Positions 8,996 to 34,137 are shown, numbered from the stretch's first letter. The stretch is 34,208 nucleotides of DNA from Dehalococcoidia bacterium LH_S1 (GCA_023660035.1 JAGXOF010000003.1:1-34208); one strand, 5' to 3'. Notes: a model not told the origin generated them from the letters alone. A program made the numbers and translations.

Positions 8996-9001
8996 AAAGA
9001 T

Positions 9002-10503: not shown

Positions 10504-10515
10504 GAAGGAGTAAAC

Positions 10516-10701: not shown

Positions 10702-10713
10702 GGGGGGAAACGC

Positions 10714-11106: not shown

Positions 11107-11115
11107 TAAGTCGAG

Positions 11116-11133
11116 AGCAGTGTATACACTGCT
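11116..11133. repeat. Perfect 18-bp palindrome between rpsH and rplF
   Basis: agcagtgtatacactgct equals its own reverse complement. Confidence 0.7.
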
Positions 11134-11154
11134 TTGTATGAGGGTATAGTCAAT

Positions 11155-12044: not shown

Positions 12045-12054
12045 GGTTTTATAT

Positions 12055-14407: not shown

Positions 14408-14417
14408 GAGGTAGTAA

Positions 14418-15059: not shown

Positions 15060-15068
15060 GAGAGTGAC

Positions 15069-15818: not shown

Positions 15819-15880
15819 GCGGGGGCAGCTTCAGAGCTTAGAAGAGGTTAAGGACTGAAAGCTTATTATTAGGGAGGTTG

Positions 15881-16096
15881 ATGGCAAAAAAAGAAGCCAT
15901 TGAGGTAGAGGGAACGGTTGTAGAGCCGTTGCCCAATGGCATGTTTAGGGTGGAATTACCTAACGGACATATAGTGCTTGCTCATGCTTCGGGCAAGATG
16001 CGAAGATATTTTATAAAGGTTGTTCGAGGTGATAGGGTCTTGGTGGAGCTTTCACCGTACGATTTGTCGCGTGGAAGGGTGACTTATCGGCTTTAG
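15881..16096 (+). CDS. infA: Translation initiation factor IF-1
   Basis: [24 protein letters not shown]. Confidence 0.98.
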
Positions 16097-16120
16097 TATA
16101 GAGGGGTTAGGTGATATAAT

Positions 16121-16234
16121 ATGAAAGTCAGAGCATCAGTTAAACCAAGGTGCAATAAGTGCAAAGTGGTAAAACGTAAGGGAGTACTTAGGGTCATTTG
16201 CTCCAATCGCAGGCATAATCAGAGGCAGGGCTAG
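16121..16234 (+). CDS. rpmJ: 50S ribosomal protein L36 (absent from the ORF track)
   Basis: Manual translation [37 protein letters not shown]. Confidence 0.97.
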
Positions 16235-16277
16235 GAGAGTATGATGGCTAAATTCATTATCTTAAGGAGTAAACAAA

Positions 16278-16667
16278 ATGCCACGCGTTGCAGGCGCTGA
16301 TATTCCAGCAAACAAACATGTGGAAATAGCTCTCCGGTATATCTATGGGGTTGGTCCCACCCTGAGCAAACAGGTGGTGGAAAAGGCCGGCATCGATCCA
16401 ACGATAAGGGGGAAGGATCTTGATGATAATGATCTGGATCGCATCCGTGAGGTAATTGATAAAGACTATAAGGTTGAAGGTGACTTGAGGAAGGAGATCA
16501 ATTTCAACCTCAAGCGCCTTGTTGAGATAGGGAGCTACCGTGGTGTACGCTATCGGCGAGGGTTGCCCGTGCATGGACAAAGAACCAAGACTAATGCCCG
16601 GACGAAACGTGGTCCGCGCAAGACCGTGGCTGGAAGAGGCCGCCGTGGTGGTTCCGGTAAGAAGTAG
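16278..16667 (+). CDS. rpsM: 30S ribosomal protein S13
   Basis: [26 protein letters not shown]. Confidence 0.98.
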
Positions 16668-16718
16668 CACAGGCGTTCATCTTTTATCACTAACCGGGTG
16701 TTTCTTAAGGAGGAGATT

Positions 16719-17117
16719 GTGTCGCCAAAGAGAAAAGGAACTGCAGGTATCAAAAGACGTGAGCGTAAAGGTATAGCGAAGGGTTGTGCTTATATACAGT
16801 CTACCTTTAACAATACAATCATTACGCTGACTGATGACAATGGAAATGTTATAACCTCTGGCAGTGCCGGGACAGTGGGATTTAAAGGAACCCGCAAGGG
16901 GACTGCTTTCGCTGCTCAAAGGGCTGCTTCCGAGGTGGCTCGTCGTGGTGCTGAGCATGGCTTGCAGCAGGTCGATGTTTATATAAAGGGCCCTGGCAGC
17001 GGGCGGGAAGCCGCGATTCGGACCCTGCAGTCCAGTGGTCTTAACATTGCAAGCATAAAGGACATCACCCCTACGCCGCATAATGGGTGTCGTCCACGGA
17101 AAAGGAGGCGGGTATAA
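16719..17117 (+). CDS. rpsK: 30S ribosomal protein S11
   Basis: STFNNTI, GPGSGRE, PHNGCRP; GTG after aaggagg. Confidence 0.98.
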
Positions 17118-17131
17118 CCCAGGGAGGGAAT

Positions 17132-17761
17132 ATGGCTCGTTACATGGGGCCTGTTTGTAGAATTTGTAGACGTCAAGGTGAGAAATTAATGCTCAAGGGG
17201 GGACGGTGTTTTACCCCTAAATGCCCCTTGGAGCGGAAGCGGTATCCGCCAGGACAAAGAGGCACTGGGCGTCCGAAGAAGATGTCCGAGTATGGTGTTC
17301 GACTTCTGGAGAAACAGAAAGCGAAGCATATCTATGGTGTACTGGAGCGCCAGATGCGGAGGCATTTTGCTCAGGCAGAGAAACTTCCTGGCCGGGCAGG
17401 GGAAAACCTGGTGACCGTGTTGGAAACCAGGTTGGATAGTGTAATTTACCGTGCTGGGTTTGTTGAGAGCCGTCGTCAAGCCAGGCAGTTGGTTCAGCAT
17501 GGATACTTTACCATCAATGGTCGCAGGACGAATATACCATCGGTTTTGGTAAAACCGGGTGATGTCATTGCATGGAAGCAGGGTAAGGACAAACGTGTTC
17601 CTTACGAATCTGCTGCCCAGAGCGTTGCTGCTAAGCATGTGCCGGCATGGTTGAGCGTCGATGATAAGTCCCTTGCAGTAAAGGTTCTGTCCCAACCGTC
17701 CAAAGAAGATATCGATGTTACTATAAATGGAAGGCTAATAGTAGAGCTTTATTCGAGGTAA
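17132..17761 (+). CDS. rpsD: 30S ribosomal protein S4 (cysteine-containing type)
   Basis: MARYxGPVCRICRR, EKQK, LETRLD, ARQLVxHG. Confidence 0.98.
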   Translation: MARYMGPVCRICRRQGEKLMLKGGRCFTPKCPLERKRYPPGQRGTGRPKKMSEYGVRLLEKQKAKHIYGVLERQMRRHFAQAEKLPGRAGENLVTVLETRLDSVIYRAGFVESRRQARQLVQHGYFTINGRRTNIPSVLVKPGDVIAWKQGKDKRVPYESAAQSVAAKHVPAWLSVDDKSLAVKVLSQPSKEDIDVTINGRLIVELYSR

Positions 17762-17787
17762 AGGTTGTGTTGCAGGAGGTTGAGAAT

Positions 17788-18813
17788 TTGGCTGAGGATA
17801 TCAATCCGACAGTAAACTATGAAGTAATCTCCGAGAATCGGGGGGTTTTTGCAGTAGAGCCGCTGGGGCCCGGTTACGGAACTACCTTAGGGAATCCTCT
17901 GAGGAGGGTCCTTCTAAGCTCACTGCCGGGTGCTGCAGTGACGACAGTCAAAATAGACGGTGTTCAGCATGAATTTTCCACTATTCCTCATATGAAAGAG
18001 GATGTGTTGGAATTCCTGTTGAATGTGAAGGGAATCAGGCTGCGCTATCTCTCGGAGCGTTCTGACACACTTCACCTTGAAGCGAGTGGTGAAGGTGAGG
18101 TGTGTGCCAGGGATATAAAGCCCTCAGCCGTGTTTGAGATTATTAACCCTGATCACCATCTCGCTACCTTGGAGTCTCCTGAAGCAAAGCTTGATGTGGA
18201 GTTGACAGTTGAAATAGGAGAGGGGTATGTGATTGCCCCTTCTGCAAGTGGCCAACCCATAGGGGTTTTGCCTGTAGACGCGGTTTTTACCCCGATTCGG
18301 AATGTGAATTATAGAGTTGAGAAGACCAGGATTGGACATCGGGGAGATTATGATCGGTTAATCCTTGATGTCTCTACTGATGGCACTGTTCCTCCTGAAA
18401 AAGCCGTTGTCGAGGCTGCTCAGATACTGTCCAATCAGTTTGGTATGTTTGAGGTACTGGGTAGACCGAGGGAAGAGGAAGCCGTTGCTGGATCAGGGGA
18501 GGGTGGTGCTTTGGCAGGCGAGGCTGATATTCCCCTTGACCAGTTGGAGTTGTCTCTGAGGACTATGAATGCCCTTCGGAGGGCTGGGATCACCACTGTG
18601 GGAATGCTGATGGGAAAGAGCAAGAAGGAATTGTTGAACCTGAGCAACTTTGGGCCGAAGTCCTGGGATGAGGTTCAGGATTGTTTAGGGCAAGCTGGTT
18701 TGACTAAGGGCTCTGAAGGTGAAGCCGCAGCGGGTGAAGAGAGTGAAACCGAAGAAATGAAAGAGATGAGGCAAAAGTTGCAAGAGAAATTCCCGGTTAG
18801 GAGGGGTAAGTGA
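17788..18813 (+). CDS. rpoA: RNA polymerase subunit alpha
   Basis: [22 protein letters not shown], HEFSTI, DAVFTP, NFGxKS; TTG after aggagg. Confidence 0.98.
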
Positions 18814-19169
18814 GGCATCGTGTAGCGGGGAGGAAACTCTCACGGGAAACAAGTCATCGAAGGATGTTATTTCGTAATCAGGTAACCGAGCTTTTGCGAT
18901 ACGGGAAGATTGTGACCACACAGGCGAAAGCTAAAGAGGTGCGCCCATTAGCCGAGGAGATGATAACCCTGGGTAAAGATGGCGATCTGCATTCTCGTCG
19001 CCAGGCTTCGGAATTTTTAACCGACCGTAAAGTAGTGAAGAAGCTGTTTGATGAGATTGGTCCGAAATATGGAAATCGAAATGGCGGCTACACGAGGATA
19101 TTCAAGCTCGGTAGGCGCCTGGGTGATGGTGCCCCTGTTGCTCGGTTAGAGCTAGTGGAAGGGGAATAA
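18810..19169 (+). CDS. rplQ: 50S ribosomal protein L17
   Basis: [23 protein letters not shown]. Confidence 0.98.
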
Positions 19170-20766: not shown

Positions 20767-21282
20767 ATGTTGGATTCTTCTGTATTAGTTCTAAATCAGA
20801 ACTATGAGCCACTTAATGTCTGTCGAACGAAACGAGCGGTGGTGCTGGTTCTTGGTGGCAAAGCGGATGTGATCGAAAACAACTCCAACATTGTACGAAG
20901 TCTCTCATTCTCAATGACTGCTCCTTCGGTGGTTCGTCTCAATCATTTAGTGAAACGTCATCGTCGCGATGTAAAGATTACACGACGGAGAGTGTTCATC
21001 CGTGACCGATATATTTGCCAGTATTGTGGAAAAGAGACCAGTGATCTTACCCTTGATCACGTAGTTCCTCGCCGTTTGGGAGGGGGACATAGTTGGGAAA
21101 ATATAGTGAGTGCTTGCAAGACATGTAACCAGAAAAAGGCAGGACGTACCCCGCAGGTAGCGGGGATGAAGCTTTTACGGAAGCCCTTTCGTCCTCCCCC
21201 GGTTGACTACTATGTCTTCTGTCCTTTTCATGTGCCAACCGAATGGCAGAAGTACCTTAGCTTGCCCAGGTCTGGCAATTGA
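20767..21282 (+). CDS. HNH endonuclease (McrA-like family)
   Basis: VLVLNxxYEPL, RDxxxCQYCG, TLDHVVP, WENIVSACxxCN. Confidence 0.9.
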   Translation: MLDSSVLVLNQNYEPLNVCRTKRAVVLVLGGKADVIENNSNIVRSLSFSMTAPSVVRLNHLVKRHRRDVKITRRRVFIRDRYICQYCGKETSDLTLDHVVPRRLGGGHSWENIVSACKTCNQKKAGRTPQVAGMKLLRKPFRPPPVDYYVFCPFHVPTEWQKYLSLPRSGN

Positions 21283-21338
21283 ATGTTGTGGTGCGCGTTG
21301 CTGGGTTGTCGATTAAGATGTTAATATAGGAGGCGCAT

Positions 21339-21411
21339 GGGGCTGTAGCTCAGCTGGGAGAGTGCCTCAATGGCATTGAGGAGGTCGGGAGTTCGAATCT
21401 CCCCAGCTCCA
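21339..21411 (+). tRNA. tRNA-Ala(GGC), CCA not encoded
   Basis: GGGGCTG/CAGCTCC acceptor stem with G3-U70, anticodon arm cctca-atGGCat-tgagg, GTTCGAAT T-loop. Confidence 0.97.
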
Positions 21412-21428
21412 TTTTGTACCAAAATGAG

Positions 21429-21785
21429 GTAACAGGTAAGTTTTCCAAAAAAGTTCTCTCAGTGGCGCGCGTATGAGTCTGGTTTGAAAACCGGGCTGCT
21501 CTCCGTTTTCCAAGGAACCTGAGTGGTCCTAAGCCTGTTTTAAGGAATGGTGGTAGTTTTGGCTCTGGCAACTCGCCAAATGAAGTCAAGGTCTTTATTG
21601 ATAAAGCCCTGAAGATATCCAGTGGCTCAACATCGTTCAAGACGCCGGTTTCGACAACGCTCATTAGCACTGCCTCATTGGAAGCACCCGAGTCCGAACG
21701 GTTGCCGAAGGTCAGCTTCCTCATGATAACCATAGGCCTCAAGTGCCGCTCAGCCCGATTATTGGTGGGCTCGACCGATGGGTAG
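21429..21785 (-). mobile_element. IS66-family remnant (right end plus C-terminus of TnpC)
   Basis: PTNNRAERHLRPMVIMRKLTFGNRSDSGA; GTAAC terminus at 21429. Confidence 0.8.
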
Positions 21786-22380
21786 ATGTGGTACACGGCA
21801 CTCAGTAAGGATGAGCCTGCCGGCAAGCCACTTTCTCGTTGTCAGAAGGTGAGGGTAAAGCTTACCCTGTTCTCCTCCGATGATCTCTCCGTCACCGAAC
21901 CGGAGAAACGCCGTGAGCTTCTGGTGCATCGTCTTCTCTGGGAGGCATAGGAGCAGAGGGCCGTTCTTACCGTGGAGGACCTGGTCCATCTGCTTATTAC
22001 CAGCGAAAGGACCATTAGCCGCATCCTGGCCACCTATGTCAAGCAGGATATCTTCATCCCGACGAGGGGACGTGTTAAGGACATCGGCCCGGGCATCTCT
22101 CACAAGACCCAGGCAGTCCATCTCTATCTCAAGGGGCTTACCCCTACCGAGGTCGCCACCCGCCTGGGACATGACCTTTCCTGTGTTGAGCGTTACCTGG
22201 ACGATTTCTGCGTGGTAATGATGGGGCTAGAGGATGGCTCTCCACCATGCGCATTGCCCGCAATACTAGGCTTGTGGAGAGGCTTGTGGAGAAATACGCC
22301 ATCCTCTACCGCAGATACTCCTCCCTGCCTGAGTGTGCTACGGTCATGGCCCGGCTCCGAGAGCGTCTGGCCTACCTGCT
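21786..22380 (+). pseudogene. DUF1670-family protein remnant (TAG at 21948, frameshift near 22239)
   Basis: EPAGKPL..EQxAVLTVEDL..SERTI..PTRGxxxDIGPGISHK..HxxxxVERY. Confidence 0.7.
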
Positions 22381-23442
22381 TATAGTTAAGTGCATAATCC
22401 TCCATAGCAAGGGAAGGCGGGAGAGGAATTTATCTATCCATGACTTGGCGAAGATCAGCCTTTTGGATAGACAATCAAACGTATGTCCTACTATTTGCTT
22501 GAAATTATCCAGATGTTTTACAAAACTTACAGAAACGACCCTCTTTATGCCCTTCCAGATAAACTCTATTGGATTGAGATTTGGGGAATATAGCGGCAGA
22601 TACGTCAGATATATCCCCATGCCTTCTGCTTCCTCTCGCACTCTCCTGGCCTTGTGAGTGGAGAATGAGAAACCCTACAAAGCTCTCTGTTTTTGAATCG
22701 GCTGTAAATTCTCGAACACTCGTGCCCCTTAAGGCGTAAAAGCCCACTGTGTTAGCTTTCATCTTCTGCGTGTTTTTCTGCATCTCCGGTTTGCCAAAGC
22801 TCCATACCCTTACCGTGTTGGCTGTGAGTTGTGGTGCACTCTCATCTGCAAACCCAAGGGCTATTTCCTCAAACCAGTCGCCTTTCACCTCCATCAAATA
22901 CTTGTAACTTAACTCCAACTGGCTACCCAGTAACTCCTCTGCATTATCCGGCCTTCTGTAATCCTTCGGATACGGCTTGGAGAAATTCATCCTGAGCTTG
23001 TCTCTCAGAATCCTCCTTACCTGGTGCTGAGATAATCTCACACCAAATCTCTCTGCTATAAGGTCCACAACCTCTGAGGTTTGCCAATAGTCCTTCTCCT
23101 TAAGTAGCTCCTCCAGACATCTCACGTTCTCATCACTAAGCTTTGATGACCTGCCTCTTTCTGAGTTATGCTTGAATAGCAGCCCATCATATCCGTCTTT
23201 GTTTCACTTTCTTATCCACACATAAGCTGTAGAATGAGGCACATCGAACAGCCTCGCTGCTTGCTCAAAAGATGTCTTGCAGTTTGCTAAAGCGTTCAAG
23301 AGCCCGAGCTTCTTCCAAACAGTGAAGTCCACCTCCCTTTTCAACAATTCCTCTACAAGTTCAGGATCATTTATCTGTATCTTGTCTCCCTTCATAATGG
23401 CTTAAGTATACCTCATTATGGAGCTTAATGCAACTTACTATA
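22381..23442 (-). mobile_element. Second IS630-family element; transposase inactivated (TGA at 23204-23206, deletion near 22665)
   Basis: TIRs tatagttaagtgcataatcctccata and tatagtaagttgcattaagctccata (reverse complement); DESAPQ, LPLYSPNLNPIEFIW. Confidence 0.85.
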
Positions 23443-25455: not shown

Positions 25456-25965
25456 GTGACAACAGGCAAACTGCGGCGCATTATCGATGGTTCCTATCTT
25501 CCATTAGCCTTGAGGCTCGTTCTGGGAGTCATTTTTATCACAGCGGCTGTGGGTAAGCTAGCCTATCCGGCTCAGTTAGCCGCCGAGGCTGAGGTTGTGG
25601 AAATATATGCCGGCCTTTTCCTCTGGCTTCCTTACAAGCTCGTTTCCGCCTACATGGCGGTCCTTCCCTGGGTGGAAGCTGTACTGGGCGCTTTCCTGGT
25701 GTTGGGGTTGTTCCCGAGAGTCTGTAGCGCTATCTTTATCCCGATAGTCCTGAGTTTTATCGGCGCCAACGCGGTGTTGTTCCGGGGTGCTCTCGGTACA
25801 CATGAGGAATGTCCTGATTGCTTTGGAATGCTGTATGTACTTTCGCATGAGCTTGCGCTGGTGATAGATATACTGATGCTGGCGGTGGCTGTTCTGATCG
25901 TGCGCAGCCGTTCCAATTTTCTCAGACTGGACCTGTGGTTTCCCCGGCGTTATCTCAAATGTTAA
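25456..25965 (+). CDS. MauE/DoxX-family membrane protein
   Basis: RLVLGVIFITAAVGKL, LPWVE, CPDCFG, four hydrophobic segments; start uncertain. Confidence 0.75.
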   Translation: MTTGKLRRIIDGSYLPLALRLVLGVIFITAAVGKLAYPAQLAAEAEVVEIYAGLFLWLPYKLVSAYMAVLPWVEAVLGAFLVLGLFPRVCSAIFIPIVLSFIGANAVLFRGALGTHEECPDCFGMLYVLSHELALVIDILMLAVAVLIVRSRSNFLRLDLWFPRRYLKC

Positions 25966-26803
25966 TCTCCATCCCGTCGTAGGCGAAGCTGATTCTCCCG
26001 TCTGCTGATTCCAGAGCACTATAGTCGTCGTAGCTTCTGTTCCAGTATTCTTCCAGGTGGACGAAAAGCACCTGCCTGGCCCCAAGGCGTTCTGCCAGTT
26101 GCAGGGTATCCTCGAACGTGTAGAGAGTGGTTCTGGAAATGTGATCGGGTGGGTACTCGAAATCGTGTTTTAATCCCGTCTCGAATATCCCCGGCTGGAT
26201 AATGAGCAGGTCAGGTTTCTGGACCTCGATGCGGTGTTCCGGGAAGGGCTTTATATCGCAGGGAGCGTAGACTACCCTCTGCCCGTTCTGCTCGAAGACG
26301 TGTACGAAGGAGATCTGGGAACCGCCGTCGATGGGGATGGCCGTGATGTGCACGTCTTCTACCTGGATTTCGCCTTTAAAGATTTCGATGTAAACGAATC
26401 CGCTCTCCCTGTAGAAATCGATCACAGGTCCGTATTGAGACTGTATTGACGCTATGCGTTCAGCAAGTTCCTCCTGGAGCAGCAGGCGGATTTGCTTTTC
26501 CGGATAGGCTTTCCAACTGCGGAAGTCGAGGGCTATCTGCTCTACCACTCGAAACCCCTCTACATGATCGGGGTCAAGGTGACTGAAGATGAGGCTGTCG
26601 ACGCGGCGGATGTCTTCCCGATTCAAAAGCCCTGCGATCTCTGCGGGCGTGTCTATCAGCAGGTTGAGATCATGCAGAAAAGCAGAAGGACCTGCCCTGG
26701 AATAAGGGAGGCCCTTCTGTCTCGCTTCCTGACATATTCTGCATTGACAAAGCGGCTTGGGGATAGGTGAGCATCCGCCGGAGCCCAGGATTGTCCACTT
26801 CAT
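25955..26803 (-). CDS. PhnP-like metallo-beta-lactamase-fold hydrolase
   Basis: LGSGG..P..CxCxxC, LLIDTP, variant HLDPDH. Confidence 0.82.
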   Translation of the reverse strand: MKWTILGSGGCSPIPKPLCQCRICQEARQKGLPYSRAGPSAFLHDLNLLIDTPAEIAGLLNREDIRRVDSLIFSHLDPDHVEGFRVVEQIALDFRSWKAYPEKQIRLLLQEELAERIASIQSQYGPVIDFYRESGFVYIEIFKGEIQVEDVHITAIPIDGGSQISFVHVFEQNGQRVVYAPCDIKPFPEHRIEVQKPDLLIIQPGIFETGLKHDFEYPPDHISRTTLYTFEDTLQLAERLGARQVLFVHLEEYWNRSYDDYSALESADGRISFAYDGMEINI

Positions 26804-26810
26804 ATTGCTA

Positions 26811-28289
26811 CTATTTGAAGGGGTCCCAGCGAATCGTCTGTTTCTCATAGGCAGCCGGGAATTGCCTCAGGAACTCATCGTAGTAGTATAGTTCCTTGAA
26901 TGTGGCAAACGGCATGCCGTAGTACGACTTGGGAGTCTCTTTGATTCCCTCGGGATCCACTACCGTGGATACTATCCTGTCCATGACATCATCAATGCCT
27001 GTTCCCATGGCAAATCTCAGTTTCTCCCGTTTGTAAATTCGCTCGGGGAGCATGTCCTTAAAGGCTTCTCTCAGGATATACTTCTCCGTCTGATTCTCGC
27101 CGTAGATCTTCCATTCCATGGGGATTTTACGGCTAAAGGCCAGCACTTTCGGGTCCAGGAACGGGGTCTGGTAGACGATGCCGTTGGCCATCCACCCTCT
27201 ATCCAGACGCCTGAGTGCCGTATTATACGCTATAGCCAGCAATTTCTTAGCGAGTTCCTCTCTGTGCTCATCGCTGGTCACGTGCTCGCTTTTCAGCACC
27301 ATGCGATATCCGCCGAACAGCTCGTCGGCGCCTTCACCGACCATAATGCTGTCACAGTATTGCTTGGCCATTTTCGAGACGTAGTAATTGGCGATCACGC
27401 CGGATATGCAGTCTTCATCAAAGCTCTCCAGGTACCATACTGCTTGGGGGATGAACTCGGATATCTCCTGATCTGTAATGTGGTAGATATTGTGTTCAGC
27501 TCCCAGGAATTCGGCCATAAGTTTGGCATTCTCGAGGTCTGGAGCGTTAGCGCTTTCAATAGCACCGGTGAAGAGATGCAAGTCTTTATTGTACTGCTTG
27601 GCTACCGCTGCGATAATGGAGCTATCCAGTCCGCCACTAGCCGAGACGGTGTTTACGCCCTTCATTCTTTTCCGGACTGCCTCTATCATGAGGTCCCTTA
27701 GCACCTTCGTTGCATGCTCCAGGTTTTCAGGCTCAGGAACATCAGCAAAGTATGGCTCAAATGGCTTTAAGCCGTCTTTGGTGCTGTATATGTGCCCGGG
27801 AACTAGCTCATGCATATCGAAGCGGATGTTGCCTATAAGCCCTTTCATCTCCGTGCTAAAACAGAAAAGGTCATTCTCTGTTCCGTAAAAGAGCGGCCTG
27901 GCTCCCACTGCGTCGCGGGCTATAATCGTTTCTCCGTTGTCCACCACGGCGCAGCAGTAACTTCCTTCCATATGCGTGAAGCAATTCTTGCCGTACTTTT
28001 GATAGTACTCTTTGAAGAGCTCTGTATCGGTCTGGCCCTCGGGTCTTTCATTGAACAGCTCTCCGTCAAAGAGGATATAGGGAGCTCTGGCGACTGCTGC
28101 ACACTGCGTCCTTTCAGGTGTCAGATTAACTTCAGCTGCTCCCAGTGCTCCTGTCCTGTCAGGGAGGGTCTGGACGATCTTGTTGTCCGGTCCACGGTGG
28201 TGCATCAGGTTAACCGCTTTCTGCACCTTTTCTGTCGCTTCTGTAAGCTGCTTTCCTTTTGTCGATATTATTCCAGCTATCGCTGCCAT
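26811..28289 (-). CDS. Asparagine-synthetase-like ATP-dependent amide ligase lacking the glutaminase Cys
   Basis: HRGPD, ARDAVGARPLFYG, SGGLDSS, GEGADELFGGY, PFLD; N-terminus MAAIAG. Confidence 0.88.
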   Translation of the reverse strand: MAAIAGIISTKGKQLTEATEKVQKAVNLMHHRGPDNKIVQTLPDRTGALGAAEVNLTPERTQCAAVARAPYILFDGELFNERPEGQTDTELFKEYYQKYGKNCFTHMEGSYCCAVVDNGETIIARDAVGARPLFYGTENDLFCFSTEMKGLIGNIRFDMHELVPGHIYSTKDGLKPFEPYFADVPEPENLEHATKVLRDLMIEAVRKRMKGVNTVSASGGLDSSIIAAVAKQYNKDLHLFTGAIESANAPDLENAKLMAEFLGAEHNIYHITDQEISEFIPQAVWYLESFDEDCISGVIANYYVSKMAKQYCDSIMVGEGADELFGGYRMVLKSEHVTSDEHREELAKKLLAIAYNTALRRLDRGWMANGIVYQTPFLDPKVLAFSRKIPMEWKIYGENQTEKYILREAFKDMLPERIYKREKLRFAMGTGIDDVMDRIVSTVVDPEGIKETPKSYYGMPFATFKELYYYDEFLRQFPAAYEKQTIRWDPFK

Positions 28290-28356
28290 TCACACTCTCC
28301 TTTCGTGTCGGTTCTATGTCCACATATTTGTTACTTGCTCTCTTTCGCCAGACCTT

Positions 28357-28384
28357 CTGGATTCCGGCTTTCGCCGGAATGACG
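28357..28384. repeat. REP-like palindromic element
   Basis: ctggattccggc-tttc-gccggaatgacg. Confidence 0.7.
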
Positions 28385-28432
28385 AAATTGCCACGCCTAA
28401 AAAGACGCAATCCTATCGGGTGAACGCTTGCT

Positions 28433-29968
28433 CTACTTGTTGTAAACGTTCAACCGCGGGAGTACCCCGGGTATTTGCTCAAATATCTTTTTAGTGGTGG
28501 CTTCATCTATGTGCTCCACAGGTTGAGAAAGGAGCTCGTTCACCTTGTCACAAGCAAGCTCTAATGCCTGGTCGCTTTCTCTATCCCCTTCGAATGGATA
28601 GGGTTGTGTAATCTGCCCACTTTTCAGCATAGGGCGGATTGACCGGATATAAAGCTTTTGCTCCGTGTTCATTACCTCTCTTATCTGTTTGAGAACTGTG
28701 TCGGTCTCATCCTGGTTGATCTGTGGGTCCCTCAAGAAGAACTTCAGCATCTGAAAATGCGCGTCATCCAGAACTGTCTGAGGCAGACAGAATGTGGAAT
28801 TACAATCGAAGAGGCCGTATGTGAGATGGAGGTATTGAGGTCCGCTCAGTGTCACCAGTATGTTCGAGAAAAGCCTTTCTACGGAGGACTGTGTGCCGGG
28901 TACTTTTGCGTCGCACACTCCAGAGCTCCCGTAGCAGGGTAATTTATAGAATCTGGCTAATTGAGCACAGTCGACGTTATACTGGCTGGTCTCAGGTGCG
29001 CCATAGGAATCGCTCAGGTCGTCAAGCCTGGCTCTTACGGGTACGCTTCCGTAAATGATCGGTGCTCCGGGGTTCACCAGCTGGCTCAGCGTTATGCCTG
29101 CCAGAACCTCAGCGTTTATCTGGGCCAGGATGCCCATTTCCTTAACGGGGGCAGTGGTCCCAGCCTGAGGTGAGGATGAAACAACTACAGGCAATTCCCT
29201 TCTGCAAAGTTCTATCATGGTCTGTGTCGTATCATTAACGAATTGCAGAGGGCTTTTTACCAGACAGGTGATAAAGGAAATGATTGGGTTCTCTTTTAAT
29301 TTCTCTTCACTGCCGACGATCAATTTGGCCATGTTGACGACGTTGTCCAGCTGCTCCAGGTTTGTTAATCCCATCATGAAGTGTTTGGTGGTATTATTCA
29401 CTGAAGCGAAGAACTTGTTAACGTCCTTGTTGTCATCTGTTATGTCGTCGTCCTGAATGTTCACTGTGCGGATAAAGGCGTCCACGGTCTCAAGGTGTTC
29501 GCATACATGAGCAGCTTTAGCCAGGTCTTCAACCATACCACGCCGTGCGTGGAATTCAGGCACCTTAGCCTCGGTGCTTGAGCCGGACTTCTTTACATAA
29601 GTTTGAAAGTCAACGTCCAGCCAGACATTTGTCTCCGATCCCGTAACGAAGAACACCCTTGGTTCATCACCGTGCATTATCAAGCTGTTATCCTCGTTCC
29701 TGGCTCCCAGCTTGACCGTCTTCGGTGCGCTATCAAGAGCTTTGGAAACGAGGTTCTCCGGTATTTTGATCGACCATGTTGGGTGCTCGCCGCCGGAGAC
29801 AAATGTAACCTCTGCACCATTACTGCTAAATATGTCCGCAGCCTCCTTGTTAAAGCAGAACAGCCCGGGGTCCATCAGAACATCCAAAGAACTCTGATGG
29901 ATCTGTTCAAGTTGCTCCTTGCTTACCCTTTCATAGGGATTAGTGATTAAGGTCCCTTCCCTTGGCAT
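28433..29968 (-). CDS. Trimethylamine methyltransferase (MttB superfamily), non-pyrrolysine, divergent paralog
   Basis: IHQSSLDVL, SPL, AGTTAPV, AQINAEVLAG..QLVNPGAPIIYG, AQLARFYKLP; ATG after aggagg. Confidence 0.9.
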   Translation of the reverse strand: MPREGTLITNPYERVSKEQLEQIHQSSLDVLMDPGLFCFNKEAADIFSSNGAEVTFVSGGEHPTWSIKIPENLVSKALDSAPKTVKLGARNEDNSLIMHGDEPRVFFVTGSETNVWLDVDFQTYVKKSGSSTEAKVPEFHARRGMVEDLAKAAHVCEHLETVDAFIRTVNIQDDDITDDNKDVNKFFASVNNTTKHFMMGLTNLEQLDNVVNMAKLIVGSEEKLKENPIISFITCLVKSPLQFVNDTTQTMIELCRRELPVVVSSSPQAGTTAPVKEMGILAQINAEVLAGITLSQLVNPGAPIIYGSVPVRARLDDLSDSYGAPETSQYNVDCAQLARFYKLPCYGSSGVCDAKVPGTQSSVERLFSNILVTLSGPQYLHLTYGLFDCNSTFCLPQTVLDDAHFQMLKFFLRDPQINQDETDTVLKQIREVMNTEQKLYIRSIRPMLKSGQITQPYPFEGDRESDQALELACDKVNELLSQPVEHIDEATTKKIFEQIPGVLPRLNVYNK

Positions 29969-30079
29969 TTCATTCCTCCTCTGATTTCTATCGTGTACAG
30001 TATGCTCGGCTCTGTTTGTCAACGCTTGGATTGCAGTACTGTGCTGGTTCGATGCCGAGGATATTCTTTCGGCGTTCTC

Positions 30080-30757
30080 TTAACCGACCAAGCTTGTAAC
30101 CACTCTTACAGCGTCGAAGCCGTCAGCACCGTAGCCGTCAGCACCGATATTGTTGGCAAACTCCTCGGTAATGGGCGCTCCACCTATAACCACCTTGACC
30201 TGATCTCTGACCCCGGCTTCTTTTAATACTTCAATCACGCCTTTCATGTTCCCCATGGTACTGGTGAGGAGTGCTGATAATCCGACAACCATAGGTTTCT
30301 CTTCCTTGATGGCATTTGCTATGGTTTCAGCCGAAATATCATTGCCTAAATCATTAACGATGTAGCCATTCCCCCGCAGTAATATGGCCACGATGTTCTT
30401 CCCGATGTCGTGAAGATCCCCTTTCACTGTAGCCAGAAACACTTTACCCTTGGGTTCAATTCCGCTCTGGGCAAGGAGGGGATCCAGCATTTCCATGGCT
30501 ACCCCGACTGTTTCAGCCGCAGCTAACATGTCCGGTATGAAGAACTCCTTGGATTCGAATTTATCCCCCACTATGGTCATGGCGTCGGTTATGGTATCTA
30601 GTATCGTACGTGGCTCGTAATTATTATCCAGAGCTTCCTGGACGAGCTCCTTCACACCCGGTTGCCCTGTCATTTCATCTTCCAGTCCTTCATCGTCCTT
30701 CGTGATTCGTCCCTGTATCACGTTTTCCTTCATTGCGCCAAGTATGTCTTCTGTCAT
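30080..30757 (-). CDS. Corrinoid (cobalamin-binding) methyl-acceptor protein
   Basis: DLHDIGKNIV (DxHxxG), SALLTST, GGAP, IGADGY. Confidence 0.95.
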   Translation of the reverse strand: MTEDILGAMKENVIQGRITKDDEGLEDEMTGQPGVKELVQEALDNNYEPRTILDTITDAMTIVGDKFESKEFFIPDMLAAAETVGVAMEMLDPLLAQSGIEPKGKVFLATVKGDLHDIGKNIVAILLRGNGYIVNDLGNDISAETIANAIKEEKPMVVGLSALLTSTMGNMKGVIEVLKEAGVRDQVKVVIGGAPITEEFANNIGADGYGADGFDAVRVVTSLVG

Positions 30758-30813
30758 GCCCCCTCCCTTTATTCGAGGATTTTGCTTGATCAATCCCTTG
30801 TAGGGGTGGCTTC

Positions 30814-31623
30814 TTACTCCACGAGCAGGCCTTTTCTATTGGCCTTTATGAACGCCTTGCAGTTAGGGTCATTGCCGGTGAGCAAATCAGCCAACTTGAT
30901 GAACGGTGTCATCTTTGAGTCCCGCGGATCGAGAATCGCTGCGTCGAGCCCGGCATAAGCTGCCATAAGCAGAGTAGCTCTGTTAACCATCTTTCTCGCT
31001 GGCAAGCCGAATGAGACATTGCTCAGTCCCACAACGGTCTTGGCCTCCGGATAGCGGCTTTTGATTCCCTCTATCGTCTTCATTGTTACCATACCCTGTG
31101 TGGGATCCACGGAAATGGGAAGCACCAGTGGGTCGAAGAAGATGTTCTCAAGTTTTATCCCTAAGGATTGTGCCTTCTCCACGATCTGACCGCAGGCGGT
31201 TAGCCTATCCTCAACATTATCCGGTATGCCCTCTGCCCCATGAGCCAGAGCTACCAGCAAAGCTTGCCGCTCGGCGGCCAGGGGAAGAATGGCCTCCATC
31301 CTCTCTGATTCGGCACTCACCGAGTTGATTGTTACCTTATCGCCATTGTACTTGTCGAGGCCAGCTTTGATGACCTCCGGGCTATCGCTGTCGATTACCA
31401 GGGGTTTATCCGTTACCTCCTGGACGATTCCTACCAGCCACTGCATAGCCACCGCTGCTTCTTCGCTGGATTCCCCTCCCCTTGTTGCGTTTACGTCAAG
31501 AAAGTCCGCCCCTGCATTCTCCTCCTCCTGGGCCAGGTTTTGTAAAAACTCCTTGTCCCTGTCAGCAATTGCTTGCCCGACCTTTTTATTTGTAGCGTTT
31601 ATCACTTCCCCGATTACTAACAT
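30814..31623 (-). CDS. Methyltetrahydrofolate:corrinoid methyltransferase (AcsE/MtgA-like pterin-binding barrel)
   Basis: IGExIN, GADFLDVN, IDS, INS, DPLVLP, GLSNVSFGLPAR. Confidence 0.92.
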   Translation of the reverse strand: MLVIGEVINATNKKVGQAIADRDKEFLQNLAQEEENAGADFLDVNATRGGESSEEAAVAMQWLVGIVQEVTDKPLVIDSDSPEVIKAGLDKYNGDKVTINSVSAESERMEAILPLAAERQALLVALAHGAEGIPDNVEDRLTACGQIVEKAQSLGIKLENIFFDPLVLPISVDPTQGMVTMKTIEGIKSRYPEAKTVVGLSNVSFGLPARKMVNRATLLMAAYAGLDAAILDPRDSKMTPFIKLADLLTGNDPNCKAFIKANRKGLLVE

Positions 31624-31682
31624 ATCCCCCCTCTTGTAGTTAAGCGTTGAAATGGAAACACTGAACCCGCTGACCTCCTGAG

Positions 31683-33122
31683 CTAGCCTTTGATGTTCTG
31701 TATTTCCGAGAGTATTCGCCCTCTTACCTCAGTGGGTAAGTTTCGTGCGGGGCCTGCCAGAATCTCGTCCACTCTCTCAGCAGCTCTCTGGAATGTATCC
31801 TTCGATCCTTTGGTCTCCCAATCTTCACGGAAGTCCTTATCGCTCAAAGTAGGGGTGTAGTGTTCCTTGCGCATGAAGCGGCGTGTATGGTTGGTGGTGA
31901 CAAAATTCCCGCCTGGCCCGGTCTTTTTAATAACATCCAACCCGATAGACTCGTCATCCACTCTTATACCTTCCACAGCTCGCATTACCATTCCCAGTAT
32001 CTCATTGTCGATGACAAGCTTTTCCTCTGACATGCTCATAGCAAATTCCATGAGTCCTGCCGCGTCGTGAATGAAATTGGCCCCCGCTAATGCGCACAGC
32101 GTGCTTGTTATGGCGGACTCGTATCCGCTTTGAGAGTCCAATACCTTTGAATCAGTCATGCCGCCTGTAGCATAGTAAGGTATCTTGTAGAATTGAGCCA
32201 TCTGGGCGGCACCGGCATTGACGAGCCCTGATTCCACCGTTCCTGCCAGATACTTGAGGTCAGAAAGGTCAGTTGAAGTAGCTACTGAACCGTAGATAAC
32301 TGGTGCTCCTTCCTTTATTAGCTGAGAAAGCATCACCCCCATAAGTGAGTCCACCACCTGGATCACCAGGTTCCCTGCGAGAGTGACCGGCGATGTGGCC
32401 CCTGTCAGCGGTTCGGCGGGAACGACGAGAGGTATGCCTGCCTCAACTATAGGTCTTGCCAGATCTCCGTAGCTCTTATCGAGTATCATGGGGCTTATTG
32501 CGCATGTAATCATGGAGATAATGGGACGCTTGCGGAGCTCTTCGGGTGAACCAGCGATCATTTCCGCCATCTTTATAACTTGCTGCACGCCCTCTGGAGT
32601 ATATACGCCCCCCATAATGTGTTTGGTGGTATTATCCAGCCCGGCGAAGAAACGATTTATGTCTACTTCTTCGACAGGTAAGTCATTAGGATAGGTGCAG
32701 AGCATAAATAGATGGATATTGTCCAGGCCGTCAGCCAATCTGGCTATGTCCTTGAGGTCCTCAAGCGTGGCATGGCGTTTCTCCCCTTTGCGTTGGTCCC
32801 ATATGTAAAGGGCGGTGCCACCAGTACCAGCGTGTACGCGGGGTCCGCCCAGTAGTAGATCGTGTTTTTCCTCTTGCCCGCACAGATTGATTTCAGCGGG
32901 GGCCATGTTAATGAGCTCCATGACCTTACTCTCAGGGACGCGCGCGATTCTGTTCTCTATATCTACCTTCGCTCCGCCCTTCTCGAAGAGGCCCATGGCC
33001 GCTTCCGAATTGACTTGGAAGCCCACTTCCTCGATAATTTGCATTGCAGATTGGTGAATTTTGTTTATAGATTCCTCTGTAAGAGGCTTATAGCTGCCTC
33101 CTTCTACTCCTTTGTTGCTCAT
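31683..33122 (-). CDS. Trimethylamine methyltransferase (MttB superfamily), non-pyrrolysine
   Basis: GATSPVTLAG, AQMAQFYKIP, DSKVLDSQSGYES, GPGGNF; ATGA overlap with upstream gene. Confidence 0.94.
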   Translation of the reverse strand: MSNKGVEGGSYKPLTEESINKIHQSAMQIIEEVGFQVNSEAAMGLFEKGGAKVDIENRIARVPESKVMELINMAPAEINLCGQEEKHDLLLGGPRVHAGTGGTALYIWDQRKGEKRHATLEDLKDIARLADGLDNIHLFMLCTYPNDLPVEEVDINRFFAGLDNTTKHIMGGVYTPEGVQQVIKMAEMIAGSPEELRKRPIISMITCAISPMILDKSYGDLARPIVEAGIPLVVPAEPLTGATSPVTLAGNLVIQVVDSLMGVMLSQLIKEGAPVIYGSVATSTDLSDLKYLAGTVESGLVNAGAAQMAQFYKIPYYATGGMTDSKVLDSQSGYESAITSTLCALAGANFIHDAAGLMEFAMSMSEEKLVIDNEILGMVMRAVEGIRVDDESIGLDVIKKTGPGGNFVTTNHTRRFMRKEHYTPTLSDKDFREDWETKGSKDTFQRAAERVDEILAGPARNLPTEVRGRILSEIQNIKG

Positions 33123-33799
33123 ACTATCCTTTCCGGACAATCGGTCTTGTCACACTTTTTGCAAGGGTTATAAGTGTCTGCTCCGCTATCGGGTGTACCA
33201 AGCCCTATAATGCCGGAGACTGATTTCTGTGGAATCATCAAGCAGCCGTCGGTCAAGCGGACCCCTATGGAACCGCCATCGACAGCCTGAAAGATCGCCC
33301 TTTGTTGTTCGGTGTCCCAGTCGCACCAGCCGGGGCTCAATCGCCGACTTAGAACGAGGTATTCCCTGCTGGCTACTCTCTCTATGCGGTCCCGAACAGA
33401 GTCGGCTACGCTTTGAACAGCAACCGAGCCTATAGCATCCAGACATGATGCCTGGAGCATGAGCCCATTTTTGACCAACCGTTTTGACATGTTTTCCAGA
33501 TAATCATCAATTGTGGCTATAAATACTGCCACCTTCTCACAGTGTTCCAGTAGCCCTGCGAGGGTTTTGCTCTGTAGTGCAGCCATATCCTCCACAACTA
33601 CCAATGAACCATGTACTAACTCGATATCTTTCACGGTATATGAATATGATGGCTGGATGAGGGACGGAGCATTCTCCGTGTACTCGTCGATCAACGACAC
33701 GGCCCGCCCTCTGGGTTTGGAACCATTTTCATAGCCCATGTATTTGTAGAGTTCACTTTTGTCTATATCAACTTCTATATCCTGAGTTGCGCTTGTCAT
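33119..33799 (-). CDS. Stand-alone methionine synthase (MetH) reactivation-domain protein
   Basis: AVFIATI, LDAIGS, RLSPGWCDW, QxxIF, LTDGCLMIPQKSVSGIIG, C-terminal CxxCxxxxC; ATG after ggagg. Confidence 0.85.
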   Translation of the reverse strand: MTSATQDIEVDIDKSELYKYMGYENGSKPRGRAVSLIDEYTENAPSLIQPSYSYTVKDIELVHGSLVVVEDMAALQSKTLAGLLEHCEKVAVFIATIDDYLENMSKRLVKNGLMLQASCLDAIGSVAVQSVADSVRDRIERVASREYLVLSRRLSPGWCDWDTEQQRAIFQAVDGGSIGVRLTDGCLMIPQKSVSGIIGLGTPDSGADTYNPCKKCDKTDCPERIV

Positions 33800-34108: not shown

Positions 34109-34137
34109 ATTCTGCCATGTCGGGACCCCTTTGTCAA
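34109..34137 (-). promoter_or_regulatory. Sigma70-type promoter of the methyltransferase operon
   Basis: Minus strand TTGACA-17 bp-CAGAAT with extended TGn. Confidence 0.7.

What the first reader, a model, noticed from the sequence alone, without database searches (positions are those of the whole stretch)
25955..33799. Corrinoid methyl-transfer operon extended by an amide ligase and a PhnP-like hydrolase: candidate undescribed amine pathway
Seen: seven co-directional genes with short gaps or overlaps (MetH reactivation domain, MttB, methyl-THF methyltransferase, corrinoid protein, second MttB, AsnB-like, PhnP-like) under one clear promoter. Known: non-pyrrolysine MttB plus corrinoid protein plus MtgA-type enzyme demethylate quaternary amines (glycine betaine, proline betaine, carnitine) onto THF; an ATP-dependent amide ligase is not part of the characterised systems I know. 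Inference: the ligase either prepares the substrate (attaching a methylated amine to a carboxylate, or forming a lactam) or captures the demethylated product. The module could also run biosynthetically toward an N-methylated metabolite.
Basis: partly seen in the sequence, partly recalled or inferred. Interest (0 to 1): 0.75.

Follow-up and report, generated by a model that had tools for sequence, protein, structure and literature searches.

The report
Methylamine operon with dead-glutaminase asparagine synthetase
A sediment bacterium carries a vitamin-B12-type operon for stripping methyl groups from nitrogen compounds that always travels with an unusual asparagine-synthetase-like enzyme, which points to an undescribed ATP-using step in how anaerobes handle methylated amines.

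Summary
Observation confirmed. Seven same-strand (minus) genes lie at 25955-33799: a MetH-activation-like protein, MttB1, a methyl-THF:corrinoid methyltransferase, a corrinoid protein, a divergent MttB2, a Cys-less AsnB-like protein (BL1) and a PhnP-like MBL.

- 67 of 80 genome loci with a BL1 orthologue (Dehalococcoidia and Desulfobacterales) have an MttB-family gene beside it. With both flanks present it is 33 of 37.
- In 22 of 25 related genomes with MttB2, an AsnB-family gene follows MttB2/CoP.
- A second Cys-less clade (BL2, 34-35% identity) fills the same slot.
- The MBL is accessory: present in 29 of 51 loci with enough downstream DNA, not found in one genus, broken in one genome.

BL keeps the adenylation site but has C1→A, R49→E and N74→D. 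Both MttBs lack the Arg that binds acidic quaternary amines. The 28361-28380 hairpin is a dispersed REP-like repeat without a T-tract.

Best reading: a catabolic methyl-transfer pathway with an integral ATP-dependent amide-forming step. The substrate is unknown. The scan saw the same module in two other genomes. No paper on it was found.

The parts
34109..34137 (-). sigma-70-like promoter match: TTGACA, 17 nt, CAGAAT with an upstream TG. It lies about 310 nt upstream of the first ATG.
   Evidence: 10 of 12 positions match. This is a consensus match only. No Rfam riboswitch was found in the leader.
33119..33799 (-). g1: stand-alone MetH activation-domain-like protein (226 aa) with a C-terminal Cys-rich tail. 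Presumed reactivation factor for the corrinoid protein.
   Evidence: Pfam PF02965, 25.6 bits against a cut-off of 25. PDB 1J6R, E 0.007. It is the first gene of the operon in relatives, at 38-89% identity.
31683..33140 (-). g2: MttB1, a non-pyrrolysine MttB-family methyltransferase closest to MtgB. It lacks all four glycine-betaine-binding residues.
   Evidence: PF06253, 369.9 bits. PDB 2QNE/9YCE, E 3e-83. Mapping onto MtgB: Y97 becomes G108, R312 becomes Y323, the Pyl position is M328, H348 becomes D359 and F356 becomes A367.
30814..31623 (-). g3: methyl-THF:corrinoid methyltransferase (MtgA/AcsE type).
   Evidence: PF00809. NCBIfam NF005719, 289.5 bits against a cut-off of 259.
30080..30793 (-). 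g4: corrinoid protein (MtgC-like).
   Evidence: PF02310 plus PF02607. Best NCBIfam family is MtgC, 187 bits, below its cut-off.
28433..30022 (-). g5: MttB2, a divergent non-Pyl MttB. Likely start is 29968. It has Val at the Pyl position and Tyr at the MtgB-R312 position.
   Evidence: PF06253, 199.5 bits. Closest solved structure is TMA methyltransferase 7XCL, E 1e-44. Orthologues occur in 25 of 41 related genomes. The Tyr is present in 14 of 14 orthologues.
28361..28380 (-). REP-like palindrome (8-bp stem, GAAA loop) inside a roughly 115-nt insert between g5 and g6.
   Evidence: 8 copies in the 1.12-Mb genome against 0 for the reversed control. No T-tract follows it, and no terminator-like site lies on the minus strand. 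The insert is absent from the 94%-identical relative, where the gap is about 25 nt.
26811..28289 (-). g6: BL1, an AsnB-type PP-loop amide synthetase with a dead, charge-remodelled glutaminase domain.
   Evidence: Pfam. Below the NCBIfam AsnB cut-offs (286 against 499; 227.6 against 267.1). Closest structure is E. coli AsnB 1CT9, E 2e-38. Residue table. Neighbourhood conservation.
25955..26848 (-). g7: PhnP/PqqB-like MBL-fold protein. Likely start is 26803. It has an N-terminal 4-Cys cluster and the motif HxDxDH in place of HxHxDH.
   Evidence: PF12706. Invariant residues C11, C19, C21, C24, H75, D77, D79 and H80. Model pLDDT 84. Best PDB matches are 6B9V, PqqB and PhnP. Found in 29 of 51 loci.

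Best explanation
This is one catabolic operon of an anaerobic Dehalococcoidia bacterium. It moves methyl groups from an imported, still unidentified methylated nitrogen compound onto tetrahydrofolate.

Inferred from family membership:
- MttB1 and MttB2 each methylate the Co(I) corrinoid protein (g4).
- The pterin-binding enzyme (g3) passes the methyl group to THF, which feeds the Wood-Ljungdahl pathway.
- g1 reactivates oxidised corrinoid.

The AsnB-like enzyme (BL1) is an integral part of this pathway, not a passenger. It keeps the adenylating site of asparagine synthetase B, including the residues that hold the amino-acid end of aspartate. It cannot hydrolyse glutamine, and its former glutamine pocket has become acidic.

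Most likely mechanism (inferred):
1. BL1 spends ATP to join an aspartate-type carboxylate to ammonium or a small or cationic amine taken from solution.
2. The product is asparagine or an N4-substituted asparagine-like amide.
3. This amide either prepares the substrate for the Arg-less MttB enzymes or ties up their product. The nearest parallel is MthK phosphorylating choline before MthB acts.

The PhnP-like MBL is an optional hydrolase. It probably removes or recycles a group after demethylation.
For: Shown: gene conservation
- All seven family assignments hold.
- BL1 orthologues at 63-94% identity sit directly after MttB2/CoP in all 9 relatives' loci examined.
- Of 80 genome loci from two phyla, 67 have a same-strand MttB-family gene next to BL1. 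Of the 37 loci with both flanks present, 33 do.
- Of 25 related genomes with an MttB2 orthologue, 22 have an AsnB-family gene following it. That is 10 with BL1, 9 with BL2, 2 with only the true-AsnB class and 1 with another Cys-less form. The other 3 are broken by contig ends.
- Two Cys-less clades, only 34-35% identical, occupy the same slot.

Shown: BL residues (71 BL1, 7 BL2, 19 true AsnB)
- Conserved in all three groups: PP-loop SGGLDSS, E348, D351, R387, K449.
- Changed from true AsnB: C1 becomes A (60 of 71 BL1; 7 of 7 BL2), R49 becomes E (70 of 71; 7 of 7), N74 becomes D (70 of 71; 7 of 7), R325 becomes S or H.

Shown: MttB residues
- Tyr replaces MtgB R312 in MttB1 (16 of 20 orthologues) and in MttB2 (14 of 14).
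- The authors state that this Arg is conserved in every characterised non-Pyl member, all of which use acidic quaternary amines (PMC13080624, Discussion).

Context
- OpuA-type betaine ABC importer genes follow BL1 on the same strand in L041. Such genes recur near other loci.
- Acetyl-CoA synthase and MTHFR are present in the own genome.
- Precedent for ATP-dependent substrate preparation: MthK (PMC12155760, abstract).
Against: - No substrate is identified and nothing was assayed.
- 4 of the 37 fully flanked BL1 loci have no MttB neighbour: L021, L031, L078 and L096. BL1 can therefore work outside this context.
- A bona fide AsnB (NCBIfam 599.8 bits against a cut-off of 499) lies next to BL1 in 20 of 80 loci. 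It alone fills the slot in G023 and G033. Plain asparagine synthesis may be what the pathway needs.
- Cys-less AsnB-like proteins with N74→D are common. About 80 of the 132 nearest 50%-identity representatives are Cys-less, so the signature is not specific to MttB-linked genes.
- ATP to AMP plus PPi for each substrate molecule is costly for a low-energy methylotroph.
- The window has a 143-nt gap with a hairpin before g6, and co-transcription is untested.
- The mapping of MtgB residues onto the short MttB-like proteins rests on a distant alignment.
Confidence: 0.55

Rival explanations
1. BL1 is simply an ammonia-dependent asparagine synthetase. Alone or with the neighbouring true AsnB, it assimilates nitrogen or supplies free asparagine. 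It sits beside methylamine genes for regulatory or nitrogen-economy reasons and does not act on a pathway intermediate.
For: - The closest solved relative is E. coli AsnB, E 2e-38 over nearly the full length.
- All adenylation and aspartate-holding residues are kept.
- A true AsnB is adjacent in 20 of 80 loci, and alone in the slot in G023 and G033.
- 11 of the 16 relatives without MttB2 have no strong AsnB-family gene, so the order seems to make Asn-tRNA another way and the module may bring its own asparagine supply.
- An acidic pocket could recruit NH4+.
Against: - Two divergent Cys-less clades are kept in the same slot across two phyla. The partner MttB types differ: MttB2, short MttB-like and canonical.
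- R325, invariant in the 19 true AsnBs, is S or H in BL, and a new invariant Cys sits at position 294.
- This reading gives no reason for a second asparagine synthetase next to a true one.
Confidence: 0.17
2. The module runs biosynthetically. Methyl groups flow from methyl-THF through the corrinoid protein and the MttB paralogues onto an asparagine-derived amine, giving an N-methylated osmolyte. AsnB and BL supply the precursor.
For: - The association with true AsnB suggests precursor supply.
- Several MttB paralogues could carry out successive methylations.
- An earlier scan note raised 'making or breaking of an asparagine-derived betaine' (unchecked).
Against: - From my own knowledge: quaternary amines have a higher methyl-transfer potential than methyl-THF, so this direction is uphill, and no corrinoid-dependent N-methylation of amines is described.
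- Betaine-type importer genes lie in or near the operon.
- The hosts have the Wood-Ljungdahl pathway to consume methyl-THF.
Confidence: 0.1
3. g6-g7 form a separate transcription unit, unrelated in function to g1-g5. The adjacency is inherited gene order within a mobile island.
For: - There is a 143-nt gap with a stable hairpin before g6 in this window.
- Orthologues in two phyla at 61-70% identity imply horizontal transfer of a block.
- BL1 stands without MttB in 4 of 37 fully flanked loci.
Against: - The hairpin belongs to a dispersed REP-like repeat with 8 genomic copies. It has no T-tract and is missing in the closest relative, where the gap is about 25 nt with the same Shine-Dalgarno sequence.
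- Gene order around BL1 is reshuffled between lineages, yet an MttB-family gene stays adjacent. Mere inheritance does not predict this.
Confidence: 0.1
4. BL1 is a cyclase of the beta-lactam-synthetase/CarA type. Alternatively it builds a small amide-linked electrophile that activates non-quaternary methylamines in place of pyrrolysine.
For: - It lacks Cys1, like beta-LS and CarA, and both appear among its PDB matches.
- In Desulfobacterales it is followed by a DAO-family flavoenzyme. This gives a ligase-plus-oxidase pair, which from my own knowledge recalls PylC/PylD.
- Neither MttB has Pyl, and both resemble the TMA enzyme at the R312 position.
Against: - It is much closer to AsnB (135 bits) than to CarA (58 bits) or beta-LS (43 bits).
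- The Dehalococcoidia operons have no DAO gene.
- There is no direct evidence for any cofactor product.
Confidence: 0.06

Closest known systems
MtgB/MtgC/MtgA glycine betaine:THF methyltransferase system (Desulfitobacterium hafniense; PDB 2QNE/9YCE)
   Same: A non-Pyl MttB-family methyltransferase, a cognate corrinoid protein and a pterin-binding methyl-THF methyltransferase encoded together. MttB1 matches MtgB at E 3e-83.
   Different: - There are two MttB paralogues.
- In MttB1 all four glycine-betaine-binding residues are replaced: Y97, R312, H348 and F356 become G, Y, D and A. MttB2 also has Tyr at R312.
- The operon adds a Cys-less AsnB-like enzyme and an MBL.
MthB/MthC/MthA/MthK choline pathway (Eubacterium limosum; PMC12155760, abstract read)
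   Same: An MttB-family system encoded with an ATP-using enzyme that modifies the substrate before demethylation. This is the nearest published logic to 'the ligase prepares the substrate'.
   Different: - The helper there is a kinase that makes phosphocholine. Here it is a PP-loop amide synthetase.
- MthB is among the members said to keep R312 (PMC13080624, Discussion). The MttBs here have Tyr at that position.
- I did not search for an MthK homologue.
Asparagine synthetase B (E. coli AsnB, PDB 1CT9; human ASNS)
   Same: Two-domain architecture. PP-loop SGGLDSS, E348, D351, R387 and K449 are conserved. Best PDB match, E 2e-38.
   Different: - C1 becomes A, R49 becomes E and N74 becomes D, so there is no glutaminase activity and the pocket is acidic.
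- R325 becomes S.
- A new invariant Cys sits at position 294.
- Scores fall below both NCBIfam AsnB cut-offs.
Beta-lactam synthetase and carbapenam synthetase CarA (PDB 1JGT, 1Q15)
   Same: AsnB-fold enzymes without the N-terminal Cys. They use ATP to form an amide without glutamine.
   Different: Much weaker similarity: 43 and 58 bits, against 135 for AsnB, and covering only the C-terminal domain. There is no natural-product cluster context.
PhnP family phosphodiesterases/diphosphatase and PqqB (PDB 3G1P, 6B9V, 4Z7R)
   Same: MBL fold with an N-terminal Cys cluster. These are the best structural matches: E 2e-15 to 1e-13, TM-score 0.62-0.67.
   Different: 14-21% identity. The motif is HxDxDH in place of HxHxDH. 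The TIGR03307 PhnP score is 40.5 against a cut-off of 272. There is no phosphonate or PQQ gene context.
Gamma-glutamylmethylamide synthetase (N-methylglutamate pathway) and PuuA (putrescine pathway); recalled, not tested
   Same: ATP-dependent amide ligases that tie an amine to an amino acid before further catabolism. Both pathways continue with a DAO-family oxidase and a hydrolase, as in the Desulfobacterales version of this module.
   Different: Those ligases have the glutamine-synthetase fold and use glutamate. This one has the AsnB fold and sits with corrinoid methyltransferases.

Membership tests
MttB superfamily, non-pyrrolysine quaternary-amine methyltransferase | PF06253 match above the gathering score | tested here: met
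   MttB1 369.9 bits and MttB2 199.5 bits, cut-off 25.
MttB superfamily, non-pyrrolysine quaternary-amine methyltransferase | No in-frame UAG; an ordinary residue at the pyrrolysine position | tested here: met
   Both frames are open. The Pyl position is Met328 in MttB1 and Val in MttB2.
MttB superfamily, non-pyrrolysine quaternary-amine methyltransferase | Encoded with a cognate corrinoid protein and a methyl-THF methyltransferase | tested here: met
   g3 and g4 lie between the two MttB genes.
MtgB (glycine betaine-specific) | Binding residues Y97 and F356 (cation-pi) and R312 and H348 (carboxylate), from PMC13080624 | tested here: not met
   In MttB1 these are G108, A367, Y323 and D359. MttB2 has Tyr at R312. 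In orthologues the Tyr is present in 16 of 20 MttB1 and 14 of 14 MttB2.
MttB superfamily, any member | Substrate:Co(I) methyl transfer activity | not testable with these tools
   Needs purified proteins.
Asparagine synthetase B (glutamine-hydrolysing) | N-terminal nucleophile Cys1 | tested here: not met
   The protein starts MAAIAGI. Ala at this position in 60 of 71 BL1 and 7 of 7 BL2; Cys in 19 of 19 true AsnB.
Asparagine synthetase B (glutamine-hydrolysing) | Glutamine-pocket residues R49 and N74 (E. coli numbering, recalled) | tested here: not met
   R49 becomes E in 70 of 71 BL1 and 7 of 7 BL2. N74 becomes D in 70 of 71 and 7 of 7. True AsnB has R and N in 19 of 19.
Asparagine synthetase B (glutamine-hydrolysing) | PP-loop SGGLDS and synthetase residues E348, D351, R387 and K449 | tested here: met
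   Invariant in all 71 BL1, 7 BL2 and 19 true AsnB.
Asparagine synthetase B (glutamine-hydrolysing) | Curated NCBIfam score cut-offs | tested here: not met
   NF006949 scores 286.4 against 499. TIGR01536 scores 227.6 against 267.1. The neighbouring paralogue in relatives scores 599.8.
Beta-lactam synthetase / CarA | Closer in sequence to these than to AsnB | tested here: not met
   CarA 58.5 bits and beta-LS 43.1 bits, against 135.5 bits for AsnB.
PhnP family MBL | MBL fold with an N-terminal Cys cluster, closest to PhnP-type structures | tested here: met
   The model has pLDDT 84. Top matches are 6B9V, PqqB and PhnP. C11, C19, C21 and C24 are invariant.
PhnP family MBL | Canonical HxHxDH metal motif and the PhnP equivalog score | tested here: not met
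   The motif is H75-x-D77-x-D79-H80. TIGR03307 scores 40.5 against 272.
MetH activation (reactivation) domain | PF02965 match | tested here: inconclusive
   25.6 bits against a cut-off of 25, covering only 48 residues. 1J6R matches at E 0.007.
Mth-type 'activate then demethylate' system | MthK-type kinase beside the MttB gene | not tested
   I made no search for MthK. None of the seven genes has a kinase domain.

The most novel reading that the evidence does not exclude
The module is a pyrrolysine-independent route for methylated amines that are not acidic betaines.
1. BL1 captures a cationic amine in its remodelled acidic pocket and ligates it to aspartate. Candidates are mono- or dimethylamine, or an amine-bearing quaternary compound.
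2. The Arg-less MttB paralogues then strip the methyl groups from this asparagine-type carrier conjugate onto the corrinoid protein.
3. A hydrolase regenerates aspartate. This would be the MBL here, and a CN-hydrolase with a DAO enzyme in Desulfobacterales.

The result would be an amino-acid carrier cycle for anaerobic N-demethylation.
Probability: 0.1. Interest if true: 0.9.

Novelty: new variant of a known kind. Interest (0 to 1): 0.62.

Why it matters
Only a handful of the many MttB-superfamily branches have known substrates, and by the authors' account all of those are acidic quaternary amines.

This branch is widespread in sediment Dehalococcoidia and sulfate-reducer-type bacteria. At least 120 protein clusters have 65% identity or more to BL1, and 80 genome loci were kept of the 105 relatives found. 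Three things set it apart:
- It lacks the acid-binding Arg.
- It is tied to an ATP-dependent amide synthetase.
- Such a synthetase is not part of any described system that I could find.

If the link is catalytic, it defines a new substrate class or a new activation chemistry for anaerobic methylated-amine turnover. That process feeds acetogenesis, sulfate reduction and, indirectly, methane budgets in marine sediments.

It also gives a testable function to a large group of 'asparagine synthase-related' proteins with a dead glutaminase domain.

Tried and rejected
- Complex prediction of MttB2 (residues 5-511) with BL1 gave no verdict: score 0.00 against a mark of 0.32, and the controls were not run. 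It counts neither way.
- Expression: no RNA holder was listed.
- Riboswitch in the 5' leader: no Rfam match at E up to 1.
- A TAG inside the MttB2 homologue of G027 looked like possible pyrrolysine, but it lies upstream of the real start. Rejected.
- ESM Atlas look-alikes of BL1 gave only generic 'asparagine synthase' clusters.
- Literature: 'MttB' plus 'asparagine synth' found 1 unrelated paper. 'Dehalococcoidia' plus 'MttB' plus 'betaine' found 3 unrelated papers. The search on Cys-less AsnB homologues found 1 unrelated paper.
- D384 of E. coli AsnB as a specificity marker was dropped, because the neighbouring true AsnBs do not keep it either.
- A Zn-type Cys site in MttB2: six Cys are invariant, but I could not measure distances in a model, so I make no claim.
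- Two Pfam calls failed on a mis-set frame. The remaining items were re-sent. Those were covered by NCBIfam.

Full report
**What is there**

The window is contig C139 of a 1.12-Mb, 64%-complete MAG. Its closest public relative is a Dehalococcoidia MAG contig, where the BL1 protein is 94% identical.

On the minus strand between 33799 and 25955 lie seven ORFs with gaps of at most 143 nt. Pfam and NCBIfam assign them as follows:
- g1: a stand-alone MetH activation-domain-like protein. The match is borderline (25.6 bits against a cut-off of 25). It is weakly like 1J6R, E 0.007.
- g2: MttB1 (369.9 bits).
- g3: a methyl-THF:corrinoid methyltransferase (NF005719, above its cut-off).
- g4: an MtgC-like corrinoid protein.
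- g5: a divergent MttB2 (199.5 bits).
- g6: an AsnB-like protein beginning MAAIAGI.
- g7: an MBL-fold protein.

A convergent MauE/DoxX-like gene closes the unit. Upstream there is one sigma-70-like match and no Rfam element in the roughly 300-nt leader.

The own genome encodes acetyl-CoA synthase and MTHFR. Methyl-THF therefore has an obvious sink.

**Is the AsnB-like gene a passenger?**

No. A search of 41 related genomes found BL1 orthologues (63-94% identity) in 10, counting the own genome. In all 9 of the relatives' loci, BL1 follows MttB2 and a corrinoid protein directly.

MttB2 orthologues occur in 25 of the 41 genomes. In 22 of these an AsnB-family gene follows MttB2/CoP on the same contig:
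- 10 have BL1.
- 9 have a second clade, BL2, only 34-35% identical to BL1 and starting (M)AGIAG, so also without the Cys.
- 2 have only the true-AsnB class.
- 1 has another Cys-less form.
- The other 3 are cut by contig ends.

Of the 16 genomes without MttB2, 11 show no strong AsnB-family gene. These genomes are kin, so the counts are not independent.

A scan of one genome per species kept the best 80 of 105 BL1 loci (61-94% identity). They come from Dehalococcoidia and, in greater number, from Desulfobacterales, Desulfotignum and Desulfatiglandales MAGs.
- 67 of the 80 have a same-strand MttB-family gene within 1.2 kb upstream or 4.5 kb downstream.
- Of the 37 loci with both flanks present, 33 do. 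The exceptions are L021, L031, L078 and L096.

The partner differs by lineage:
- MttB2-CoP in Dehalococcoidia.
- Two short MttB-like proteins of about 400 aa in the common Desulfobacterales layout: MarR, short MttB, BL1, DAO flavoenzyme, MBL, short MttB, CN-hydrolase.
- A canonical-looking MttB-CoP-MttB set in a third layout.

Gene order is reshuffled, yet the BL-MttB link is kept.

**The MBL is looser**

It lies within 3.5 kb downstream in 29 of 51 loci that have that much sequence. It was found in 15 of the 41 relatives. It was not found in any of the 5 genomes of genus g5, and four of these carry BL1. In G011 it is broken by 7 stops.

Its model (pLDDT 84) is closest to a PhnP-family diphosphatase, PqqB and PhnP. 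It keeps an invariant four-Cys N-terminal cluster but has HxDxDH where MBLs have HxHxDH.

**What the residues say**

I aligned 71 BL1, 7 BL2 and 19 neighbouring true AsnBs (one of them scores 599.8 bits against the AsnB cut-off of 499).
- All three groups keep the PP-loop SGGLDSS, E348, D351, R387 and K449.
[quoted passage not shown] The acyl substrate is therefore probably aspartate-like. This is inference.
- In the glutaminase domain both BL clades share C1→A, R49→E and N74→D. The nucleophile and oxyanion residue are gone, and the pocket has changed from basic to acidic.
- R325 is S or H, and a Cys at position 294 is invariant in BL but is Leu in true AsnB.

Cys-less relatives with N74→D are common. 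About 80 of the 132 nearest 50%-identity representatives are Cys-less. E at R49, S/H at R325 and C294 together mark only the closest few.

For the MttBs I mapped the four glycine-betaine-binding residues of MtgB (PMC13080624, abstract) through the printed PDB alignments.
- MttB1 has G, Y, D and A at Y97, R312, H348 and F356.
- MttB2 has Tyr at R312, as does the TMA enzyme 7XCL, and Val at the pyrrolysine position.
- The Tyr is present in 16 of 20 MttB1-type and 14 of 14 MttB2 orthologues.
- The authors state that R312 is conserved in all characterised members, all of which use acidic quaternary amines (Discussion).

These enzymes therefore probably bind something that is not an acidic betaine, or they bind it in a different way.

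**The hairpin**

The stem-loop at 28361-28380 has 8 copies in the genome, against 0 for the reversed control. It has no T-tract, and no terminator-like site lies on the minus strand of the region. It sits in a roughly 115-nt insert that the 94% relative lacks. There the MttB2 stop and the BL1 ATG are about 25 nt apart, with the same Shine-Dalgarno sequence. This argues against a dedicated terminator but does not prove read-through. No RNA data were available.

**Mechanism**

Shown: the families, the conserved linkage and the residue patterns.

Inferred from family knowledge: the direction of flow is substrate, then MttB1/MttB2, then Co-protein, then g3, then methyl-THF. g1 acts as reactivator.

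Inferred from residues: BL1 adenylates an aspartate-type carboxylate and couples it to ammonium or a cationic or small amine taken from solution.

Speculative: this amide is the form on which the Arg-less MttBs work, or the form in which their product is held, and the MBL later removes a group. In Desulfobacterales a CN-hydrolase and a DAO enzyme would play that role.

Import is suggested by OpuA-type betaine ABC genes. They run on directly from BL1 in L041 and lie near other loci. The published choline route, in which MthK phosphorylates choline before MthB acts (PMC12155760, abstract), shows that 'activate with ATP, then demethylate' exists in this superfamily.

**Against this reading**
- The true AsnB is a frequent neighbour (20 of 80 loci) and sometimes the sole occupant of the slot.
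- ATP to AMP is a high energetic price.
- Four loci have BL1 without any MttB.
- There is no identified substrate.

**Novelty**

I found no paper connecting MttB systems with an AsnB-like enzyme. The scan itself had already noted the same module in two other genomes (e1-3932329 and e1-1412141). I treated those notes as leads and re-derived the layouts from my own loci.

I rate this a new variant of a known kind: a corrinoid methyltransferase system with a new class of ATP-dependent partner and probably a new substrate class.

Noticed in passing
window 32060-32159 (-): Rfam PYLIS_3 (pyrrolysine insertion sequence of mttB) matches above its gathering score (48.1 bits against 38). The match lies inside MttB1 and starts exactly at the codon equivalent to the Pyl position, which here is ATG (Met328). 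Most likely it reflects conserved coding sequence, not a working PYLIS.
   Followed up: partly
window 28361-28380, and 7 other places in G000 (C125, C155, C110, C118, C148, C153, C8): A short REP-like palindrome (core of about 27-30 nt, 8-bp stem, GAAA loop) is dispersed in the genome. There are 8 copies in 1.12 Mb.
   Followed up: partly
L099-L105 (G036, G028, G007, G020, G016, G008, G039): A second clade of Cys-less AsnB-like proteins (BL2, starting (M)AGIAG) is only 34-35% identical to the window's protein. It occupies the same operon slot after MttB2-CoP and shares the R49→E and N74→D changes.
   Followed up: yes
L048, L059, L066 and about 30 other Desulfobacterales loci: A MarR-headed layout recurs: short MttB-like, BL1, DAO-family flavoenzyme, MBL, short MttB-like, CN-hydrolase. 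The CN-hydrolase is most like the glutaminase domain of NAD+ synthase (109 bits). Betaine-type ABC transporter genes are often nearby.
   Followed up: partly
P0121-P0268 (50%-identity representatives): Cys-less AsnB-like proteins of about 490 aa with N74→D form a large, diverse, unnamed group (N-termini MAGI... or MSGI...). About 80 of the 132 nearest representatives are Cys-less, against 46 canonical Cys/Arg/Asn ones.
   Followed up: no
L021:6456-10479: In a 'Spirochaetes' MAG contig the BL1 orthologue (78% identity) has no MttB neighbour. On the same strand it is preceded by a SAM-type methyltransferase and an MBL of a different Pfam family (PF00753).
   Followed up: no
window 1107-2044 (-), 20767-21826, 21972-23125: Mobile-element debris flanks the ribosomal-protein/SecY/RpoA operon at about 5100-19000. 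It includes an IS1595-type transposase split over two ORFs, an HNH endonuclease gene, a tRNA at 21339-21411 under an IS66-fragment ORF, and DUF1670 and HTH fragments.
   Followed up: no
MttB2, window 28433-29968 (-): Six Cys are invariant in 15 MttB2 sequences (C174, C253, C273, C352, C370 and C407, numbered on the 529-aa ORF). One of them sits next to the Pyl-equivalent Val. Whether they form a metal site could not be checked.
   Followed up: no
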